A DNA stretch of 64,000 bases from Eledone cirrhosa (lineage: Eukaryota): positions 41,354,001-41,418,000 of the forward strand of contig OZ024744.1 in NCBI GenBank assembly GCA_964016885.1, given 5' to 3'. Made by a program: the position numbers and the translations under genes. The notes below the pieces were generated by a model. The model saw only the letters and a program-made list of their open reading frames with translations. It did no database searches and was not told the origin of the DNA. Each line of letters starts with the position of its first letter. Positions within the stretch are counted from its first letter, which is position 1. Positions 1-62,040 of this stretch are shown here, piece after piece.

Positions 1-419
1 TTGACCACAAGAACTTTTGCAACACGAATTGGCGCAAAAGTTATTTTAATACCGCTGGAGCCACTTTTTTAACATAAAAACAGATAGAATTCCCAAAACT
101 AATCAGATCAGAGCCAATATCACGGACGCTCTATCTCAAAATGATTTTTGAAAAGCATTAGAAATGCGCAACCGGTAAAACTAAATACCAAAACTGAATA
201 CTAACCAATACTATTACTAATTCTCACTTATTCCTAATTAAACTATTTTTCACTGTGAACAATCTGTCAGCATTTTCTATTCCGTTTACCAATATATCAT
301 AACTTGTGTGTTACACCTCTATTCTTTTAAATATATATATATATATATATATATAGGTATATATATATGCATATATATATATATATGTATAAGTATATAT
401 ATATATATATGTAAAAGGT

Positions 420-542
420 AAACAGAAATAACAACACAATCAGTACAGTATATGGAAGGAATATATTAGGTTAACACTTGAAATACCAGGAACAGGGTCT
501 TAAAGTTTTGGACGCTAGTCCTTCATCAGAATTAAGAAAACG
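420..542 (-). mobile_element. Penelope-like terminal (pLTR) fragment with degenerate hammerhead-like core
   Basis: Minus strand reads CTGATGA-A-GGAC-TAGC-GTCC-AAAAC-TTTAAGAC. The downstream ~100 nt is homologous to 20095-20210 and runs into (TA)n. Confidence 0.5.
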
Positions 543-2030: not shown

Positions 2031-4487
2031 ACAGTTAATGTCAGTGAAGCTCTTAAGGTCTATATTGCATGGTGGGCGAGCAGAAATGTTGAATACTCTG
2101 GTTTAACTTATCTAGTTGATTCTCACATGTGTGGGTGGGCAATCCTAAATGTTTTCCATGTTTCATATAATTGTTTCTACTTTTGGCACAAGGCCAGCAA
2201 TTACCCCAGTGTATTACTGGTACTTTATTTTATTGACCTCGGCGGGATTTGAACTCAGAACTTAAAGGGCCATAACTCTATATTATGTTATTTATAATAG
2301 TTGTAGTTTAGTGGATTTTATAATAGTTGTTTCTACTTTTGGCACAAGGCCAGCAATTACCCCAGGGCATTACTGTGTATTTTATAATAATGTTATACTT
2401 ATTTCATATATTTATCCAATTTTAATGTCTTATATATTATTACATGCTCAAACTTTTATCTTTATATAACTTTGTCCAACACATACCCTTAAGTCTGTAA
2501 TGTTTACTGTATTTCTATGTGCAAGCCGTTGTGGCTAATCATAAAATCAGGCTCTGACCTTATCGATGACTTTCGCCACCTCTGTCTCCTTGTTTTTTCA
2601 ATTATTTCAGGTTTTCTTTTGTCTTTTTCTCAAAAGCTTTTGATACTAGAATTGTTTTCCATATGATGACGTGTATGTGTATAAGTGTGTGCATGTGTGT
2701 ATGAGCATATGCATACATTTATATGTGTGAGTATAGAAATATAAACGTGCAAACACAGACACACTTGCAAAAATACACAGACATACATTCACACAAACGC
2801 GCACATACACATACACTCACACACAGCATAGTTTTTCACCACCCACTTCTTTACTTTTACACACACATACGTTCATGCAGGCAGTGGACATAAAGAGAGA
2901 GCAGTAGTATGAGGTAGTCAAACTACTCCTGTCTCTTTGGATGTTGTGACGGAATCACAAAAATGTATATATAGAAGGTCACAAACTTGATTAATCAACT
3001 AATGGATAGATTAAATCTCTGATTTATAATAAAAATCCAAAGTGGAACTCAACTGGTGTATGTGGCAAAGTAGGATGATAACTTTATCTTTTTATATGTT
3101 TATCCTGATGATGAGGATGAAGCTATATATATATATATACACACACACATATGTGTGTGTGTATATATAAGAGAGATTGAGTGAAAGAGAGAGGGAGAAA
3201 GAGTATTACTGTAGGTCTTGTGAGATCATGAATCTGAATTTCCTTTCCAAGGTAAGATTTTTTTTTTTTATGGAAGACGACTGGTAATCCAGGAATGCCC
3301 AAAGCTTCACCCAAGCCATCCTTGATCTCCACTAACACTCTATACAAAGTGAGCATTATTTTCTGATCACCTATCATGTTGTCCAGCTGGTAAAGTGCTG
3401 TGAGAACTTGGCAGCCAACAATTTGTTTTATTGACCACAAAAACCCAAGATATTAGGAACAATACAGTGGAGTTTACATTGAGTAAAAGACAGCAAAGTA
3501 GTAACAATAAATGATATTTTTCTTCCAATTATTTAACTACTGCTAGCAATGACTCCACTTCATGACAGGGTCAACCCATGCCAGGCAGTAAAAATGTAAA
3601 AGAGAATAAAATGATTTTTTTAATCATTGTTGTTATCTTTTTGTCATTGGAATGACAAACATTTATAAATTATTGCCTACATTCTGCTGAGAAATCTTGA
3701 ATCCCTTTTTGTGCATTATCTAGAAATATGTGTGTAGCATTAGTAAATCAAACACTGATAAATTGTAATTATAATATATTCAGAATATTGCCTGCTGTAT
3801 TATATTAAATGTGAGAATATCAACGGTGTTATTGCATTACAACACTAATTAAATATTGAACACTTAAAATTTTATTAATGCCATTCAATATCAAATAATA
3901 TTCTGGTAAGGATTAATAAATGTCTTTACAGTATGGCAGTTGTTGCTCTTTCTATACGCATTCATTATCCAAGAGATACAAAAACATTACTACATAGTGC
4001 ATTATGCCAAAGTTCCCACTGAATAACTTCAAAGCACACCCACCCTGCAATGTCTTTTGAAAATAACAGATACAATCAACAACATGACCAGCTATATGAT
4101 CAATCACATGCCAACCACCTCACCAGTGACACATCCAACCATATGATTATCTCTCTAAAGCAGAACTATCTGATGAGGCAATTCATATCTGCAGATATAC
4201 AGTACAGAGTTAACTAAGACTGTGTGAATATGTATGTAAGTACAACACAATGAGTGTCAACTTTACATATTTCCCCATAGATTGTAAAAATGATGAACAA
4301 TCCTCAAAAAGGAAAACAAACATACTATATTGTCAGTTTTCAATCTCATGTATGTGCATTTGTTTGTATTTATATATACATAAATGTGTATGTGCGTGTA
4401 TCTGTGTGTTTGTGTGTAAGCAGATGTGTCTCTCTCTCTGTGTATGTGCATGCACATTTGTGTGAAGATAGGGAAGGCAACAGAGAT

Positions 4488-6113
4488 ATGAAGATAGGGA
4501 AGGCAACCGGTCCATCGGGTATAGCTGCCGAGATGCTGAAGGCATCTGGGTCTGTAGGTCACACTATAACCACACGTATTGTTAACCAGGTAATACTAGA
4601 AGGTGTCATACCAAAGGATTGGTGCAGTAGCATCATTGTCAACTGCTACAAAGGTAAAGGCGATGCACTAGATAGAGGAAACTATAGAGGTATAAAGTTG
4701 ATGGACCAGGTCATGAAAGTAACAGAAAGAGTTATAGCACAGCTGATTAGGGACTGGGTGAATATAGACGAGATGCAATTTGGGTTTGTACCAGGGAAAG
4801 GCACCACTGATGCCCTCTTCCTTGTGAGGCAATTACAGGAAAAGTACCTAGCTAAAAGTAAGCCACTCTACTTGGCATTTGTCAACCTTGAGAAAGCCTT
4901 TGACAGAGTTCCACGTGCAGTAATCTGGTGGGCTCTTAGAAAACTAGGAGTAGATGAATGGCTTGTGAAAGCGGTACAAGCCATGTATAGGGGAGCAGTC
5001 AGCAAAGTTAGGATTAGCAATGAGTATAGCGAGGAATTTAGCGTACAGGTTGGGGTCCACCAGGGCTCTGTTCTTAGCCCTCTCCTGTTCATCATAGTCC
5101 TGCAGGCAATAACGGAGGAGTTTAAGACCGGATGCCCATGGGAACTCCTGTATGCTGATGACCTCGCACTCATAGCTGAATCTATGGTAGAACTAGAGAA
5201 TAAATTCCAAACCTGGAAGCAGGGACTAGAGAGAAAGGGCCTCAAAGTCAATATGACAAAGACTAAGGTCCTTGTAAGTAGACGAGAAAACAGAACCCAG
5301 ATCCCCTCAGCGAAATGGCCTTGCTCAGTATGTAGGAAAGGTGTAGGTAGGAACTCCATTCTTTGCCCCAAATGCAAACAATGGGTACACAAGAGATGTA
5401 GCGGGATCTCAGGAAGCTTAATTAAGAATGTAGGATTCACATGCAGCAGCTGTGCTGAAACAGCAAGCAAACAGCCACAGGAAACAAGTACCACCAATCT
5501 CTGGGAGGGCCTTGTAGAAACAGTAGACAGCTTCTGCTACCTAGGTGACCGAATTAGCAACGGAGGTGGGTGTTCAGAAAGTACAATAACTAGGGTAAGA
5601 ACGGGATGGAAGACGTTTAGGGAACTACTACCACTGCTAGCTGCAAAAGGCTTCTCCCTCAGAATGAAAGGCAGACTGTATAATGCGTGTATCCGAACAG
5701 CGATGTTGCATGGTAGTGAGACCTGGGCGCTGAAGGTGGAAGACTTACGTATATTAGAGAGAAACGAAGCCTGCATGCTCCGATGGATGTGTAACAGTAA
5801 TATACGTGAACGACAAAGCATAAAGGAATTGAGAGAGAGACTGAGCATAAGAGGAATCAAATGCTGCTTGCAGGATAGTCGGTTACGCTGGTATGGACTT
5901 GTGATGCGTATGAAGGATGACAGCTGCATAAAAAGGTGCAGAGCACTAGAAGTTGATGGAAACCGCAGAGTGGGGAGAACCAAGATGACTTGGGATGAGG
6001 TGATAAAAGCCGACCTTACCCAACTACACCTCACAAAGTCAATGACACACGACCGTGACTTCTGGCGTCACGCAGTAATACAGGGTACCCGACCTCCCAT
6101 GGGTACATGCTGA
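4488..6113 (+). mobile_element. 5'-truncated RTE-clade LINE; uninterrupted RT ORF with internal PHD-like finger
   Basis: KATGPSGI, NYRGIKL, QFGFVPG, LEKAFDRV, GVHQGSVLSPLLF, LLYADDL, FCYLG, MLHGSETW, RLRWYG. The ORF track's N-terminal extension (4290-4487) is microsatellite read-through. Confidence 0.93.
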
Positions 6114-11469: not shown

Positions 11470-13862
11470 TGATGGCAGACATATCGCTGAGGCTGAACAG
11501 ACTAAGACATTCTGGAGAGGAATATAGGAGCAGGATGTTGACATAATAGTCAGGCAGTGTGGATTGAGACAGTTCAAAAGAAGATTAGTGAACAAGCACA
11601 CCAACAACCTGATTTGAGTATCACAACTGAAACTCTTAAAAGGCAGGCCAAAAAACTAACCAAATGGAAATCACCAGGCCCAGATGGTGTGCAAGGGTAT
11701 TGGATTAAAAATATAACATCCCTCCACCCAAAACTGACAACCATGTTCAATGACTGCTTGATGTCGGGTGAAGTATCAAAGTGGTTGACAAAAGGTACCA
11801 CAGTTCTGGTAATGAAAGACCGAATCAAGAGTAATGATGTTACCAACTATAGACCTATCAAATGTCTGTCCATATTGTGGAAACTGTTAACAAGCATTGT
11901 GTCTGAGGAAATCTACTATCACCTCTACATAAACAACTTGTTACCAGATGAACAGAAAGGATACCGAAAGAAGTCCCCTGGTACAAAAGACAAGTTACTT
12001 ATTGATAAGATGATAATGAGGAATTGCAAAAGGAGGCACACTGGTCTTGCTATGGGATGGATAGACTACAAAAAGGCATTCGACATGGTACCTCATTCTT
12101 GGATAACCAAAATCCTAGAGATCTTCAAGGTGGCCAACAACATCAGAGAGCTATTAAGTAAAAGTATGAAGTCCTGGAAAAAAGAGCTAACATCCTTGGG
12201 AGGCGTGAAGATCAAGAGAGGTATTTCCAGGGAGATAGTCTGTCCCCTCTGTTGTTTGTCCTTACCCTCATACCCTTGTTCCTCATATTGCGAAAAGTGA
12301 GAGCAGGATACAAGCTGGTCAGAGGAGAGCTTACCATCAACCACTTCCTCTTCATGGACGATCTTAAGCTCTTTGGGAAGACTGAGAATGAGTTAGATGT
12401 ACTTGTTAACACTGTCAGTATTTTCAGCAATGATATATGTATGGAATTGGGTGTTAATAAGTGTGGAGTCCTAGTGATGAGGAGTGGTAAATTGAATAGA
12501 AGCAACGGAATCCAGGCACCAACAGGAGAGATGATAAAGGGAATTGACACTGAAGAGGGATACAAATATTTAGGTGTTCTGGAGGCAGATGACATCAAGA
12601 ACAATAAAGTGAAGGAATTGATAACATCTGAATACATAAGGAGAGTAAGGAATATACTAAAATCACATCTAAATAGTAGGAATGTCATAAGTGCAGTGGA
12701 TTCCCGAGCTGTGTCTATTATTGGGTACAGTGCGGGAATTCTGAAATGGAATGTTACTGAACAAAAAGAAATGGATAGGAAGACTAGGAAGCTATTGACT
12801 ATCTACAACATGTTCCACAAAAGGAGTGATGTCGATAGACTCTACTTAAAGATATCTGAAGGTGGAAGAGGTCTTATCAGCATAGAGGACTGTGTTCAGA
12901 TGGAGAAAAACAGTCTACACAAATACGTGTCTGACAGTAGGGAGCCAATGTTCAAAATTGTACTGAAGGAGAGGACAATAGATCAGGAGAAATCCAAGGA
13001 AGAAATAACAACAAGGAGAAAGAGCAGCCTTCATGAAAAATCCCTTCATATTACCTTCTTTAAATAAATGGAATTCAGAGATCCACAGGCATGGAACTGG
13101 TTAAAAAAAAAAGCTACAAAGGGAATACTAATGGCTTCACAAGAGCAGGCCCTCAAAACGAAGTGGTTGAAACACCATATTTACAAAGAGGAGGCTAGCC
13201 CACTGTGCAGGATCTGTGGAGAGAGAGAGGAGACTGTGGCTCACATTGTATCCGAGTGTAAACACCTAGCCCAGACTCACTATAAGGGCTTGAGACATGA
13301 TGTGATGGGCAGGGTGATCCACTGGCACCTATGCAAAGTAAACAATTTACCACATTCTGAGAAGTGGTATGGGCATAAGCCAGAGACGGTGATAGAAAAC
13401 GATCAGGTGAAGTTGCTGTGCGATTTTAGGATACAAACAGACAAGAAACTGGAACACAATAGACCTGACCTGGTGGTTTTGGACAAAGAAAAAAGATCGT
13501 GCCTGATTGTGGATGTGGCCTGCCCATTCGACACGAGAGTGCAAGAGAAGGAGAGGGAGAAAATGAACCGATACCAGGACTTAAAGTGGGAGGTAAAAAG
13601 GATTTGGAACTGCCATGAAGTCAAAGTGATCCCGATTGTCATAGGCGCACTAGGGACTATCTCAAAAAGTTTCCAGGGATGGTTAAAGAAAATTGGCCCC
13701 TTCACGCTTTTTGGAATGCTTCAAAAGGCATGCTTGCTGGGAACAGCAAGAACCCTCCGATACATCCTGAATATCTGAGGCTGCAGGTAGTGACTTGATA
13801 TTCATTTCAACAAACTTTCCAGTTAAATAACATCAATGACTGAGACTCAAAGAATAATAATC
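11470..13862 (+). mobile_element. R4/Dong-like LINE (RT + CCHC + restriction-like endonuclease), frameshifted and 5'-truncated
   Basis: KSPGPDG, NYRPI, IDYKKAFDMVPH, FMDDLK, YKYLG, GGRGL, CRICG..ETVAHIVSEC..RHD..RPDLVV..DVACP; stop at 13778; short (AAT)n tail. Confidence 0.92.
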
Positions 13863-16139: not shown

Positions 16140-16540
16140 CTGAAACTAATAATACAACAACAACAGCAACAATAATAATAATAGTTTCTGATTTAAGCAC
16201 AAGGGCAGCAATTGTTTTTGTGTCAGGCAATGGAAAGTCAATTAAATCAATCCCAGTGCATTACTGGAACTTTATTTTATTGACCCTGTAAGGACAAAAG
16301 GCAAAACTACCCTCAGCGGGATTTGAATTCAGAACGTAGAGAGATATAACTCTATGCTGCAAAACATGGTTGTTTTCTTTATTGATATATTTATAAGTAA
16401 TTTTCTCTCCATTCTCTAAAATTCTAATAAATTCTGAACATGCAAAATTTTGTGAAGTAGTTAGAGAAAAATAAAAATGTAAAAATAATTCAGCAATTTC
16501 TAAAGTAAGTTGAAACAAACACACACATATATATATGTAT

Positions 16541-17135
16541 ATGAATGTATGTATAGTATATTTGGCAATATACCATATGTTTAATTAAAAACATTTTGAA
16601 GACGTTGCACTATCATTTTTAAAGTAGTGACCATGTCACTGTGAAACAGAATCTGTCAGCTTCTCTCCCTTCCTTTTCCAAATAAAGAAGTTAGTGACAT
16701 AGTCACTACTTTATAAATGATAGCGCAAGGTCTTCAAAATGTTTTTAAGCATACGGTATATTGCCAAATATACTATACATACTTTCATGTATACATCGCT
16801 ATTTCAGAGCACCCATAATAATTTTTAATTTTTGCTGGACTGGCAATCGTTCTGTATAATCAGTTCCTGATTATTACTGGAATTCTATAAGAATCCAGCC
16901 TCTATAATTTTCGGCAGAGGCGGGGAGTACTTTGCTCTGAGGATCACCAACAGTGTGAAACAATCTGTCAGCTTCTCTCCCTTCCTTTGCCAAAAAAAGA
17001 AGTAAGTGGCATAGTCACTACTTTAAAAATGATAGCGCAAGGTCTTCAAAATGTTTTTAATTAAACATACGGTATATTGCCAAATATACTATACATACAT
17101 TCATGTATACATTGCTTTTTCAGAGCACCAATCCT
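16541..17135 (+). mobile_element. Non-coding Penelope/retrozyme-like module: inverted segment plus partial tandem repeat
   Basis: 16541-16640 is an inverted copy of 16693-16788. 16641-16813 is directly repeated at 16955-17130. Contains a hammerhead and is flanked by (TA)n. Confidence 0.75.
16934..16972 (+). ncRNA. Type I hammerhead ribozyme motif
   Basis: GCT-CTGAGGA-tCAC caaca GTGt-GAAAC-aatct-GTC-AGC: all core nucleotides present; stem I GCT/AGC extended by GGGAG/CTCCC. Confidence 0.75.
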
Positions 17136-17149
17136 AATTTTTATATATG

Positions 17150-17182
<33 letters not shown>

Positions 17183-39839: not shown

Positions 39840-42800
39840 ATGCTTTTCCCTGCTTTCAAGGGTGGGACGGGTCTTATTCAGCACAGCATCTCTCCACTCG
39901 TTACGGTCCTTCGTCATCTCCACCGTGAGTTTCAATGATCTGAGGTCTGTTCTCACCACCTCCGGCCATGTTTTTCGTGGTCTACCTCTACCACGTCTTC
40001 CTTCAACTGGCATTTCCTGGCACTTCTTCACCCATCGGTCATCCTCCATGTGCATCACATGTCCATACCACCTCAGTCTCCTCTCCCGTACACTACATTC
40101 TATTCCTCTCAGACACAGTTTCTCTCTCAACACATTTATGCTGGGTTGTTCATGCACATTTACACTGCACATCCAATGGAGCATGCTTGCCTCATTTCTC
40201 TCCAGCCATCGCATATCCTCTGCAGTTGCTGCCCATGTCTCACTACCATGCAGCATCGCGCTCCTCACACAGGCATCATATAACCGGCCTTTCGTACGCA
40301 GGGAGAAACCATTCTTCGTCAACAGAGAAAGCAGCTCCCTAAACTTCTTCCAACCCCTCCTTGTTCTAGATACTATGGCCTCGGAACACCCTCCTCCCAT
40401 GCTAATCTGATCTCCTAGGTACCGGAAGCTATCCATCACTTCTATAGCTCCCTCCTGCATTTGAAAAATGTGTCTATCAATGCGACTTCTACTGTCTAAT
40501 TTCCCTGTACATCTACTACATACATATTTCTCCCTACCTGTTAGTTTGCCTGCTATCCGCTACATCTCTTGTGTACCCAGGATGTGTGCATTTTATAGAA
40601 TTTATGCCAGTTCTTTTTCTGCATATCGAACATGGCCATTTCCCTGACGGAATCAGAGTTTTGTCCTCTTTTCTACTCATCAACACTTTTGTCTTAGGTA
40701 GGTTCACTCTCAGTCTTCTTTCTTCCAAAATTTATTCTCTAGCTCCTCTACTGATTCTGCTATAAGAAGCAGATAGTCAGCATAGAGAAGTTCTCATGGA
40801 CAGCCAGTCTTAAACTCCTCTGTTATGGCTTGGAGGACTATAATGAACAAGAGCGGGCTGAGGACTGAACCCTGATGTATTCCTACTTGTATCTGGAATT
40901 CCTCACTAAACTCCATTCCTACCCTAACTTTACTGAGAGTACCTCTGTACATAGTTTGCCATTCCTCAACACCTAGCTTCCTTAGGGACCACCAGATGAC
41001 AGATTGGGGTACCCTATCAAAGGCCTTCTCTGGGTCAACAAAAGCTAAGTATAGTGACTTATTTTTCTCTAAGAACCTCCCTTGCAATTGTCTCACCAAG
41101 TAGAAGGAATCTGTTGTGCTCTTCCCAGGCACAAAACCAAACTGCATCTCATCTAGTTTGACCCTTTCTCTAATTAGTTGTGCTAATATGTTTTCTGCCA
41201 CTTTCATAACCTGATCTCTCAGTTTTATACCCCTATAATTGATCCTCTCCAGAGCATCCCCTTTACCTTTGTAGCAATTTATGAGAATACTGATGCCCCA
41301 GTCTTTGGGTATGACACCACCATATATAGCCTGATTGATGATGCGTGCAACCCGTTCAGTGCCTATGTCCCCTGATGCCTTCAGCATCTCAGCAACTATG
41401 CCCGATGGTCCAGCAGCCTTACTATTTTTCATTTCCCTAATCTCCTTTTGGACCCTATATTCGTCAATCTCAATAGCTGGTCCCTCTGTCGGATCTACTA
41501 AGGGTAATTTCTCTCTCTCCCATTTGTTCTCCACATTCATCAGTCTCTCATAATGACATTTCCAGGCCTCCTTTTTCTGATCATTCGTGACACTAAGTAC
41601 ACCGGCATCATCCCAGACACATTTATCTCCAACAACATCCTGATTTGCATTGACACACTGCTTTGCAATGTGGAACACCGCACGCCTCTGATCTTCCCGT
41701 CGCAGAACATTGGCAAACCTCCTACTCTCTGCCTCCCTGCGTGCTAAGTACACCTGACGTCTAGCTTCTCTCTTAGTGGCTGTATATTCTTCCCTACTCC
41801 CACCCTTTTTCCAAGCCTTCCATGCTAGTCTTTTGTCTCTAATAGCCTTATCTACTGTGCTGTTCCACCACCAGGTCACTCTCTGTCTGGTTGGATCTCT
41901 GCTCCAGCCACAAGTATCATCAGTAGCCTGCAGCAACTTGTCACATAAGAAATTCCAGTTATTATCTATATCATACGTCTCTAAATCATCTTCTTTTTCG
42001 TCATATACATCTTGAAGGGCTTTCCTAAATTTGTATTATAGTGAAAGGTCTTTTAGCTTCCAGACCTTTCTTCTCCACACCTTCCTATATGTCTCATTCC
42101 ATCTCTTGCTTACTGAGATATCACTAACAACTAACCTATGCTGTGGGGTACATTCTTCCCCAGGCTATGCCTTGGTATTAGACACTATCTGCCTCTCCCG
42201 CTGCCTAACTAGTAAGAAGTCAATCTGGCTTATGTGCTCACCAGGTTTGTAGGTTATTAGGTGATTGGCAGGTTTCTGGAAGTTTGTGTTGCAAATAGTC
42301 AATGTACCTGCATCACAAAATTCAAGAAGTCTCACTCCTTCTTCATTTCTTGAGCCGTAACCGTGCCCACCATGTACCCCAGTGTAACCATCCTGGAGCT
42401 GTCCAACATGACCATTGAAGTCTCCTGCTAGCATAACGATGTCTCCATCCTCTGTCATTGCGGTTGTTTGTAAAAGTTGTTTGTAAAAGCAGTCTTTCTC
42501 ATCTTTGCCTAGGCCTGCTTGGGGAGCATAGGCCGAGATGATTGTCAGTAGTCTCCTACCTACAACTAATCTAAGCTTAATTATTCGATTACTAACTCGA
42601 ACTACCTCTATTGTCTTATTGATCCATTTCTCAGCCAGGAAAATGCCTACTCCCCCTAACCCATCATCCTTACCTACCCAGAATAGCTTATAGCTAAAAC
42701 GTTTGCCTACGACTAGTCTCGCAGAGGCACCTCTCCATCTCACCTCTTGCACGCAGCACACATCCACCTGCCTTCTCTCCAGCATCTCCACTATTTCAGC

Positions 42801-43010
42801 AGATCTACCTCTGAGAGTGCCAACATTAAGTGTTGCAACTCTGAGATGCGACGTCTTCATATGTTATTGTTGTTCTTATTTGTTGCTGTGCTGATAAGCG
42901 TTTTGGCATTGATACACTGGTTGGATGCCCTTCCTAACACCAGCGCCACTTTACAGCATGGACTGGGTGTATTTATTTGTGCCACCAGCACTAGAGAGGA
43001 TGTCTTACTA
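39840..43010 (-). mobile_element. Near full-length RTE LINE: 5'UTR, APE endonuclease, RT, PHD-like insert, C-terminus; several stops and frameshifts
   Basis: ATG at 42860: TLNVGTL..CVQEVRW..SAYAPQ..AGDFNGHVG..QIDFLL; RT 40794-41936; C-terminus 39840-40460. Confidence 0.95.
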
Positions 43011-59689: not shown

Positions 59690-59910
59690 TTTAGAGACAG
59701 TACTATAGACATGTGGTTAGAGGCAAAACCAACCTATAGGAGACCCTGGAGTAGACCTTAAATAAGATGGTTAGATGCCATCCATGAGCTTGGTTGGTCT
59801 CACTAAAGGATCCAGCTCTCCAGCTGGTTCAATTGGAGAAGGTTGCCTCTGGCAGGCCTTTTTGGAAGGTGTGCTTGAGGACTACCCCAATGACACTTCC
59901 AAGAAGAAGA
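59690..59910 (+). mobile_element. RTE-like 3' end remnant with (AAG)n tail
   Basis: PTYRRPWSRP*IRWLDAI. Confidence 0.55.
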
Positions 59911-59980
59911 AGAAAAAGAAAAAGAAAAAGAAAAAGAAAAAGAAAAAGAAAAAGAAAAAGAAAAAGAAAAAAAAGAAGAC

Positions 59981-60029
<49 letters not shown>

Positions 60030-60036
<7 letters not shown>

Positions 60037-62040
60037 GCATTTGATAGTTTGCCACACAGTTGGATTGAAAAATGTTTAGAGATTTTCAAAGTATCCCCCG
60101 TTGTCAGGAGGTTTTTGTCATTCAGTATGAAGACATGGAAAACGACACTCCTTTTGAATAGTGAAACAAAATCACTGGAAGCTGGAGAAGTTAATATTAA
60201 TTGTGGAATTTTTCAGGGTGACTCTTTATCACCGCTTTTATTCTGCATCGCACTTATACCATTAAGTAAAATGCTCAATGAAACAAAACATGGATATAAA
60301 GTCTATGACAAAACCATTAATCACCTGTTATACACGGATGACCTGAAACTATTTGCAAAAAATGATGAACAATTGCAAGGGCTATTATCCACTGTTGAGC
60401 AGTTCAGTGATGACATTAAAATGGAGTTTGGACTAGATAAATGCGCCAAAGCAACGTTCACCAAAGCTGGTGAAGAGTTCAGACATTAATCTTGATCGAG
60501 GGAACGTGATAAGAGAACTTGATCAAGAAAAAACTTACAAATATCTAGGTGTTTGTGAAGGAGACGGAATCAAGCACTCGACAATGAGGGAAAGGATAAG
60601 GAAGGAATGTTACCTCAGAGTAAGAGCAATCTTAAGAACGGAATTGAATGCAAGGAATAGGATCGATGCCATAAACACGCTTGCCATACCAGTAGTAACC
60701 TACAGTTACAATGTCATCAACTGGTCAAGCACAGAGATCCGTAGGCTCGATACAAAAATTCGAAAATTCTTAACCATGCACAGAATGCATCACCCTAAGG
60801 CAGATATAGATAGAATATATCTCCCTAGGAAAGAAGGAGGACGTGGGTTAATCCAGTTAGACATTGCGTTGAAAACTGCAACAATTGGATTATCTACATA
60901 TCTAAGGGAATCACATGATTGGATGATCAAACTCGTTTTGAAACACGAAAGCATCAAAAGATCATATTCCATTACAAAAATGCACAAAGATACAGTAATG
61001 GACTACAAATTTCAGAAGTCCCATTTACTGCTGAAATGGAAAACACAGAAAAAGCAAAGCAGGTAAAAGTAACTGCAAAGAAAGAACTGCTACAGAAACT
61101 GGCTAAGAAATGGCAAGAAAAGCCTCTGTATGGAAAATACCCAGAGCGAGCTAACAATCCTGATGTTGACAAAACTTTAACTCATCAGTGGTTGGCATCC
61201 TCTGGACTGAAATCGGAGACTGAAGGACTAATTATATCGGCACAAGATCAGTGTCTGCCAACAAAAAATTACCAAGCCAACATAATAAAAAATGGGTGCA
61301 GCCCATTATGCCGTGTATGCAAAAAACAACCAGAGACCATTGACCATATAATTTCAATGTGCAGTCCTATAGCTCCAACCGAATACCTAAACAGGCATGA
61401 CAGAACTGCACAATACATACATTGGATAATGTGTAAGTATTTTGACCTGCCCCATCAAAAGAATTGGTGGGAGCATCAACCACCTCCCATACTTGAAAAA
61501 GATCACATCTCAATCTTGTGGAACTTTAGCATCCAAACAGACCGAAAAATAGATGCAAACAGACCTGATATAATATTGAAAGACTTTCAAAAGAGGGTAT
61601 GCCTGCTAATTGATATGTCTGTTCCAATAGACAAGAATGTATCTATAAAAACATTTGAAAAATTGAGCAAGTATAAGGACCTGGAGATAGAAATTGGAAA
61701 AATGTGGAAATTGAGAACTAAAACAATACCAGTGGTTGTAGGCGCTCTGGGAATGATACCTAAGGGGTCTAATGACTACTTATCGCAAATCCCAGGAAAC
61801 CCGCGTATAGGAGAAATACAAAAGATAGTATTAATGGGAACTGCCCATATACTAAGGAAGATTCTGTCAATATAAGTACATCACAAATCTAAACACTAAA
61901 GATGCATGTGTGAATATGTATGTTCTTTCTTGAACATGGCCGACCTTGTTGTCTCTTGAGGTCACTGGTTGTGACTTGGTGATAACTCGTATGAACATAA
62001 AGCAAGATAAATGCAACTGTAATAATAATAATAATAATGA
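60030..62040 (+). mobile_element. R4/Dong-like LINE (RT + endonuclease) flanked on both sides by (AAT)n
   Basis: KKAFDSLPH, GIFQGDSLSPLLF, YTDDLK, YKYLG, GGRGL, CRVC..ETIDHI..C, RHD, NRPDII..DMSVP; two frameshifts. Confidence 0.93.

What the first reader, a model, noticed from the sequence alone, without database searches (positions are those of the whole stretch)
16541..17135. Retrozyme-like unit: 312 nt between two GUC sites, partial tandem plus inverted 5' piece
A complete hammerhead lies at 16934-16972, with predicted cleavage after 16969. An upstream copy of its 3' half (GAAAC-AGAATCT-GTC-AGC, GTC at 16655-16657) is cut off by an inversion junction at 16640. The 312-nt spacing defines a monomer in the size range of metazoan retrozyme circRNAs, and inverted-plus-tandem geometry is typical of Penelope insertions. 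A related stem III fragment sits at ~254-271. The base of stem II is a U-U mismatch, so this copy may be impaired.
Basis: partly seen in the sequence, partly recalled or inferred. Interest (0 to 1): 0.75.

Follow-up and report, generated by a model that had tools for sequence, protein, structure and literature searches.

The report
Penelope-pasted hammerhead retrozyme, aged copy
This is one aged, partly damaged copy of an abundant 317-base non-coding repeat that carries a predicted self-cutting RNA (a hammerhead ribozyme); its uneven, back-to-back ends match the footprint of Penelope-type jumping genes, which likely copied it into a TA repeat from a small, probably circular RNA, so it is a new member of a known class and a usable test case for how such repeats spread.

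Summary
The element spans 16541-17138/43: an inverted 100-nt arm, a cut-off hammerhead half, one 312-nt monomer with a complete extended type I hammerhead, and a partial second unit. It belongs to a family (consensus 317 nt) with over 1,100 exact end-motif copies in a 3.0-Gb animal genome. The hammerhead fold covaries across 53 copies, including a C3-G8 to U3-A8 core swap. 35 of 37 two-armed insertions have one end about 34 nt longer than the other, in TA repeats: the Penelope 'tail'. In a young sister lineage, locus-specific variants are fixed in every unit of both arms, and all 114 junctions are seamless at the predicted cut site, favouring a circular template. Corrections: the U-U mismatch is a family variant; this copy's own lesions are a 2-nt stem III deletion and a lost stem I pair; only one hammerhead is complete, so it is unlikely to release a monomer; the 254-271 fragment belongs to a different, hammerhead-less Penelope-like element. 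Cleavage, expression and the driving enzyme are untested. The scan reported sister families in this genome before. New member of a known kind.

The parts
16530..16540 (+). left target flank in a (CA)n(TA)n run; 11-nt TATATATGTAT, possible target-site duplication
   Evidence: same 11-mer at 17142-17152; 22 of 418 TATATAT starts in the window continue this way, so only suggestive
16541..16640 (-). inverted, 5'-truncated second arm (consensus about c36-c135) ending at the family's short end
   Evidence: 93% to 17005-17112; short-end class of 3' ends
16641..16657 (+). 5'-truncated hammerhead half: GAAA, intact 4-bp stem III and GUC; catalytic 5' strand and stem II missing
   Evidence: matches family consensus
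16658..16969 (+). one full monomer (312 nt here, 317 nt consensus, 36% GC), cut site to cut site
   Evidence: 9 of 272 non-CpG, non-polymorphic differences from consensus
16913..16991 (+). extended type I hammerhead: distal and proximal stem I with internal loop (UAC at 16928-30), core CUGAGGA 16937-43, stem II with U-U base, loop CAACA, shortened stem III, predicted cut after C16969
   Evidence: covariation on 53 copies; fold; weak Rfam HH9 match on a family copy
16970..17138 (+). partial second unit (c1-c168), ending at the family's long end; consensus match runs on to 17143
17030..17127 (+). conserved end module (GGTCTTCAAAATG ... AC-rich stem-loop ... GCTATTTCAGAGC-like hairpin) shared by 310/311-nt and 316/317-nt sister families; inferred reverse-transcriptase start region
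   Evidence: three-family alignment; 20,845 exact pattern matches, 0 control; hairpin fold
17105..17138 (+). 34-nt one-sided 'tail' between short and long ends
   Evidence: 35 of 37 two-armed insertions have one long and one short end
17142..17152 (+). right target flank, second copy of the 11-mer, start of a (TA)n(TG)n run

Best explanation
This is an aged, partly damaged genomic copy of a non-coding 317-nt hammerhead repeat (a non-LTR retrozyme) whose ends carry the Penelope footprint, and it was likely pasted into a TA repeat by a borrowed Penelope-type reverse transcriptase/GIY-YIG enzyme copying a probably circular RNA monomer from both sides of a DNA break. Inferred cycle: (1) a multi-unit array elsewhere is transcribed; (2) its hammerheads are predicted to cut out monomers that a host ligase would circularise; (3) the enzyme, likely a dimer, would nick both strands of a (TA)n run and start two cDNAs at two internal sites about 34 nt apart, the short one in an AC-rich stem-loop about 134 nt after the cut site; (4) each cDNA would run backwards across the seamless cut site and stop at a variable point, and the two 5'-truncated cDNAs join head to head (here at 16640/16641). 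Shown here: the anatomy, the family, structural selection on the hammerhead, the two fixed ends, the TA target, template homogeneity in a young sister lineage. Inferred: cleavage, circles, two-enzyme copying and which Penelope family drives it. This copy has one complete, weakened hammerhead and is likely a dead end.
For: Family: 2,682 candidate places; 1,156 exact 31-mers, 166 exact and 1,455 relaxed hammerhead cores, controls 0. Structure: 18 of 32 pairs change on both sides, 87% of cells pair, 0 of 500 shuffles reach any measure, slid controls 39-60%; first 100 listed cores: C3-G8 73, U3-A8 18, U3-G8 5, C3-A8 4 (hand count). Ends: 35 of 37 two-armed insertions have one long and one short end (p = 5e-9), mostly followed by TA runs; this matches the 30-40-bp one-sided tail of PLEs (PMC8557442), shown in vitro to be the stretch between two internal RT start sites in an AC-rich stem-loop (PMC11167929). 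Template: subfamily alleles agree between opposite arms of one insertion in 136 of 170 comparisons versus 9,375 of 58,214 between insertions. In 16 young sister arrays 11 variants are fixed in all units of their insertion, 8 of them across both arms, 3 private to one locus; 114 of 114 unit junctions are exact at the cut site. A young Penelope-like family with a 784-aa RT + GIY-YIG frame and a Neptune-type Cys linker has the same TA target and a 32-nt tail.
Against: No RNA or cleavage data. Rfam finds no hammerhead in this copy and only 18.7 bits, under the 52-bit cut-off, on a better copy; the catalytic fold of this copy lies 6.1 kcal/mol above the best fold (others 2-9). No autonomous element that shares sequence with the repeat was found; the one Penelope-like family examined shares none and has no hammerhead. 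Same-arm allele agreement in the older subfamilies is only 54 of 91. In vitro the anole PLE used uncleaved RNA and did not need hammerhead cleavage (PMC11167929), and 8 of 9 Xenopus retrozyme dimers did not cleave (10.64898/2026.07.22.740005). The covariation rows were picked by a core pattern and are related, which inflates the shuffle test.
Confidence: 0.72

Rival explanations
1. Same Penelope-driven insertion, but the template is an uncleaved linear multimer read through from a source array; the hammerhead is a passenger or acts elsewhere, and no circle is needed.
For: Seamless junctions are equally expected; the anole PLE copied uncleaved RNA and hammerhead mutants still inserted (PMC11167929); this insertion holds only about 1.5 units.
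Against: At least five different variants are fixed across whole young arrays in 16 loci while singletons are rare, which needs repeated single-monomer bottlenecks; of 10 partly shared variants only 1 crosses arms and not at the same unit index; the core and stems are under compensatory change.
Confidence: 0.2
2. The 500 nt are the truncated pseudo-LTR end of an autonomous Penelope-like element, not an independent retrozyme.
For: Penelope ends; retrozymes are related to pLTRs in Xenopus (10.64898/2026.07.22.740005); not every PLE family of this genome was examined (42,808 candidate places, 95 scored).
Against: In all 30 loci picked by the hammerhead pattern the sequence upstream is monomer or a truncation point, never a frame; sister lineages form pure arrays of up to 13-14 units per arm; the hammerhead is the extended canonical type, not the minimal PLE type (PMC4209133).
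Confidence: 0.05
3. An ordinary satellite spread by DNA-level duplication and fold-back, with a chance hammerhead look-alike.
For: Rfam does not score it.
Against: Fixed, uneven ends in TA runs, dispersal over many chromosomes, covariation including the tertiary core pair.
Confidence: 0.02

Closest known systems
Metazoan non-LTR retrozymes (coral, mussel, axolotl; Cervera and de la Pena 2020, PMC7229834; parts 2-4 of 6 and passages read)
   Same: Non-coding 150-450-nt low-GC monomer with a canonical type I hammerhead, tandem copies; U-U base of stem II as in axolotl HHR_Amex2.
   Different: No cephalopod family in the passages read ('octopus' and 'cephalopod' 0 hits); circles and cleavage shown there, not here; here the insertions are two-armed with a one-sided tail ('inverted' has 0 hits in that paper).
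Li, Clavereau and Pollet 2026, bioRxiv 10.64898/2026.07.22.740005 (parts 1-3 of 5 read; supplements closed)
   Same: Proposes animal retrozymes are non-autonomous Penelope derivatives.
   Different: Evidence there is co-occurrence and pLTR similarity in vertebrates; here it is insertion-end geometry, with no shared pLTR found.
EN+ Penelope-like elements: Neptune/Naiad insertion structure (Craig et al. 2021, PMC8557442, passages) and anole Poseidon in vitro (Frangieh et al. 2024, PMC11167929, parts 1-2 of 4)
   Same: Inverted 5'-truncated copy, 30-40-nt tail at one end, (TA)n or AT-rich target, start in an AC-rich stem-loop downstream of the hammerhead; multicopy non-autonomous Chlamys such as MRC1 are also described.
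   Different: No reading frame; extended rather than minimal hammerhead; no shared sequence with the local Penelope-like family tested.
U3-A8 hammerhead variant of Schistosoma Cercyon PLEs (Cervera and de la Pena 2014, PMC4209133, passages)
   Same: Same core-pair covariation occurs in relatives of this copy.
   Different: Here it sits in an extended hammerhead of a retrozyme lineage; the window copy itself keeps C3-G8.

Membership tests
Type I hammerhead ribozyme | Core C3 U4 G5 A6 N7 G8 A9, G12 A13 A14, A15.1-U16.1, H17 around three helices | tested here: met
   sequence 16934-16972; A15.1-U16.1 and C15.2-G16.2 invariant in 53 of 53 rows, 18 of 32 pairs with two-sided change
Type I hammerhead ribozyme | Purine-pyrimidine pair (usually G-C) at 10.1-11.1 | tested here: not met
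   U-U here; family rows A-U 33, G-C 2, G-U 1, unpaired 17 of 53; axolotl HHR_Amex2 cleaves with U-U (PMC7229834)
Type I hammerhead ribozyme | Match to a curated Rfam hammerhead model | tested here: inconclusive
   none for this copy; HH9 18.7 bits, E 0.016, cut-off 52, on L086, with loop 1 UAC and loop 2 CAA aligned
Type I hammerhead ribozyme | Self-cleavage after C17 | not testable with these tools
   bench assay needed
Non-LTR retrozyme | Non-coding monomer of 150-450 nt, GC below 50% | tested here: met
   312/317 nt, GC 36-38%; only short incidental open frames
Non-LTR retrozyme | Head-to-tail tandem copies, dispersed in many loci | tested here: met
   about 1.5 units here; up to about 2.6 in one arm in close relatives; up to 14 segments per arm in the sister lineage
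Non-LTR retrozyme | Two complete hammerheads in tandem (Li et al. 'active' criterion) at this locus | tested here: not met
   upstream copy lacks the core 5' strand; met by young sister arrays
Non-LTR retrozyme | Target-site duplication longer than 4 bp when present | tested here: inconclusive
   11-nt repeat flanks both ends, about 5% chance in local TA runs
Non-LTR retrozyme | Expressed as linear and circular monomer RNA | not testable with these tools
   no RNA run was listed
Penelope-mobilised insertion | Inverted 5'-truncated copy with a 30-40-nt tail at one end only | tested here: met
   35 of 37 two-armed loci; 12 of 13 scorable young arrays
Penelope-mobilised insertion | AT-rich or (TA)n target | tested here: met
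   flanks listed
Penelope-mobilised insertion | End sequence shared with an autonomous partner | tested here: inconclusive
   one family tested, no similarity beyond shuffles; other families not examined
Autonomous Penelope-like element | RT plus GIY-YIG reading frame | tested here: not met
   no such frame in or attached to the repeat

The most novel reading that the evidence does not exclude
This genome holds one long-lived retrozyme superfamily (over 20,000 units) whose members keep a fixed RT-start module while swapping their hammerhead, and whose insertions record two Penelope enzymes reverse-transcribing one RNA circle round and round from both ends of a break: genomic evidence for rolling-circle retrotransposition of animal retrozymes by a partner recognised by structure, not shared sequence.
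Probability: 0.5. Interest if true: 0.65.

Novelty: new member of a known kind. Interest (0 to 1): 0.4.

Why it matters
The papers read propose, but do not show, that Penelope-like elements move animal retrozymes and that circles are the template. This family gives testable positions (two fixed ends, an AC-rich start hairpin), a young sister lineage, and a young intact-frame Penelope-like candidate in the same genome, so the published in vitro PLE assay can be applied directly. The particular locus is a decayed copy and matters mainly as one data point; the scan has reported the same picture for sister families.

Tried and rejected
Rfam on the window and on 16600-17140: no hammerhead. Sequencing runs: no RNA holder listed; the three coded runs laid were contigs of one sample that look genomic, so no statement on expression or cut ends. 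Two hammerhead matches 4.5 kb apart were checked as a possible full-length element and proved a segmental duplicate. The Penelope-like family at the window's left edge was tested as partner: no shared sequence, no hammerhead in a 5.6-kb stretch holding a whole unit; rejected as source, kept as candidate enzyme only. The 254-271 fragment as a hammerhead half: rejected. One core cutting both GUC sites by strand swapping: disfavoured by 14-18 kcal/mol. A search for the end hairpin outside retrozyme context in the loci held found none. The first allele-concordance count included end positions confounded by the TA target and was redone without them. Literature searches listed no paper on cephalopod retrozymes; the library lacks most subscription papers, and bioRxiv supplements were closed.

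Full report
Observation. The coordinates hold: GTC at 16655-57 and 16967-69 are 312 nt apart, the direct repeat has spacing 312-316 and the inverted arm 16533-16640 matches 17005-17112 at 93%. The core reads CUGAGGA (16937-43), U, CAC-CAACA-GUG, U, GAAA, a 3-bp stem III and GUC. Stem I is long, with an internal loop, and the 92-nt region folds better than all 200 shuffles (z -3.3). The genome is 3.0 Gb in 1,796 contigs; its repeats look octopus-like to me (recalled, not tested; earlier scan notes say the same).

Family. The stretch has 2,682 candidate places, 40 scored. Exact patterns give 166 close hammerhead cores, 1,156 end 31-mers, 1,455 relaxed cores and 20,845 copies of a module shared with 310/311-nt and 316/317-nt sister families; every reversed control gave 0. 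Thirty-one near-full monomers give a 317-nt consensus. Copies differ from it by 3.3% on average at non-CpG, non-polymorphic sites; this copy's three segments by 9 of 272, 2 of 153 and 2 of 95. A rough tree of 76 segments is ladder-like, with a young U3-A8 lineage nested inside the window's family (many inner branches are weak).

The hammerhead is under structural selection. I aligned 53 of 86 listed hammerheads, dropping mostly those whose 5' stem I strand was cut by a truncation and second copies from one insertion. Of 32 named pairs 18 change on both sides, 87% of cells pair, none of 500 shuffles reaches any measure, and slid controls pair 39-60%; relatedness and pattern selection inflate this test. 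Among the first 100 of 1,455 listed cores I counted by hand C3-G8 73, U3-A8 18, U3-G8 5, C3-A8 4; the U3-A8 rows may be one or a few events, and the swap is known from Schistosoma PLEs (PMC4209133, passages). Rfam misses this copy and gives HH9 18.7 bits on a relative, with both tertiary-contact loops aligned.

State of this copy. U-U at the base of stem II is not private: 29 of 58 tallied hammerheads have it, 27 have A-U, and axolotl HHR_Amex2 cleaves with it, 22% in 1 h as a monomer (PMC7229834). Private lesions are the loss of 2 nt in stem III and G-to-U at 16931, which removes a stem I pair. The catalytic fold lies 6.1 kcal/mol above the best fold (2-9 for six relatives) and the swapped fold that would cut at 16657 lies 14-18 above. 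With one complete hammerhead the locus fails the two-hammerhead 'active' criterion of Li et al. and is likely a dead end.

Insertion anatomy. Family 3' ends fall in two classes, near c134-142 and near c168, nearly always into TA runs. Of 37 two-armed insertions in 82 loci, 35 have one of each, 2 have two short ends, none two long (p = 5e-9). Here the short end is 16541 and the long end 17138-17143, so the tail is 17105-17138. An 11-nt repeat flanks both ends but has about a 5% chance in local TA runs. Craig et al. describe the inverted truncated copy, the one-sided 30-40-bp tail and (TA)n bias for PLEs (PMC8557442, passages). Frangieh et al. show that a purified PLE protein cuts both strands of AT-rich DNA and starts cDNA at two internal sites that bound the tail, in an AC-rich stem-loop (PMC11167929, parts 1-2 of 4). 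The short end here lies at the loop of an AC-rich hairpin.

Template. Opposite arms of one insertion agree at subfamily sites in 136 of 170 comparisons, same-arm copies in 54 of 91, different insertions in 9,375 of 58,214. The young 317-nt sister lineage (about 80% identical, U3-A8, G-C at the stem II base, 99% identical genome-wide) is more telling. In 16 arrays, 11 variants are fixed in all covering units of their insertion (8 across both arms; three private to one locus), 10 are partly shared, 71 are singletons; 12 of 13 scorable arrays have one long and one short end, one has two long. All 114 junctions are exact at the predicted cut site. Repeated fixation of new variants across whole young arrays implies a one-monomer bottleneck, best explained by a circle; a homogeneous linear multimer is not excluded, and the anole enzyme preferred uncleaved RNA. 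I took the two-arms-from-one-circle framing from earlier scan notes and tested it on this lineage only.

Driver. The fragment at 254-271 belongs to a young Penelope-like family whose frame lies just left of the window: 784 aa, RVT_1 plus GIY-YIG, with a Cys linker of the Neptune type (PMC8557442). It inserts in TA runs with a 32-nt one-sided tail, but shares no sequence with the repeat beyond shuffles and has no hammerhead. It is a candidate enzyme, no more; the protein search had 42,808 candidate places and scored 95. In 30 loci picked by the hammerhead pattern none has a frame joined upstream of the repeat.

Comparison and verdict. It meets the sequence-testable features of non-LTR retrozymes (PMC7229834) and of PLE-made insertions; cleavage and circles are untested (no RNA run listed). 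Searches listed no paper on cephalopod retrozymes, within a library that lacks most subscription journals; the preprint's supplements were closed. The scan has already reported sister families in this genome with the same reading; a look-up by this sequence and near this place showed nothing. Verdict: new member of a known kind, this locus a decayed copy; interest 0.4.

Noticed in passing
window 1-325 and L031 5366-7020 (just left of the window): End of an inverted arm of a young Penelope-like family: 4.7-kb unit, 784-aa RT + GIY-YIG frame, a separate upstream frame of at least 436 aa, long low-complexity 3' region, 32-nt tail, no hammerhead found; many copies keep open frames.
   Followed up: partly
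window about 495-530, minus strand: Remnant of a minimal PLE-type hammerhead (CUGAUGA ... with the GAAA mutated); an intact relative lies in L014.
   Followed up: no
L020 1-974, L159-L174: Very young 317-nt sister lineage with U3-A8 core in two-armed arrays of up to 14 segments per arm, whereas older subfamilies hold only 1-2.6 units per arm; why array length differs (collapse with age or faster cleavage) is unexplained.
   Followed up: partly
L088 1-750, L175-L204: 310/311-nt sister family shares the end module but has a rewritten hammerhead region, mostly again with U-U at the base of stem II.
   Followed up: partly
L002, L016, L017, L095, L132: At least two further hammerhead families lie in flanks of unrelated loci; one also has U-U at the base of stem II.
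   Followed up: no
L160 1302-3203: Variants C14T and C116T recur with a three-unit period in one young array: a later duplication or a trimeric template.
   Followed up: no
window 4281-6110, 11542-13064, 40797-42863, 59788-60486: LINE-type reverse transcriptase fragments, one with a PHD finger, one with an endonuclease frame; no host gene found among the 16 frames scanned.
   Followed up: no
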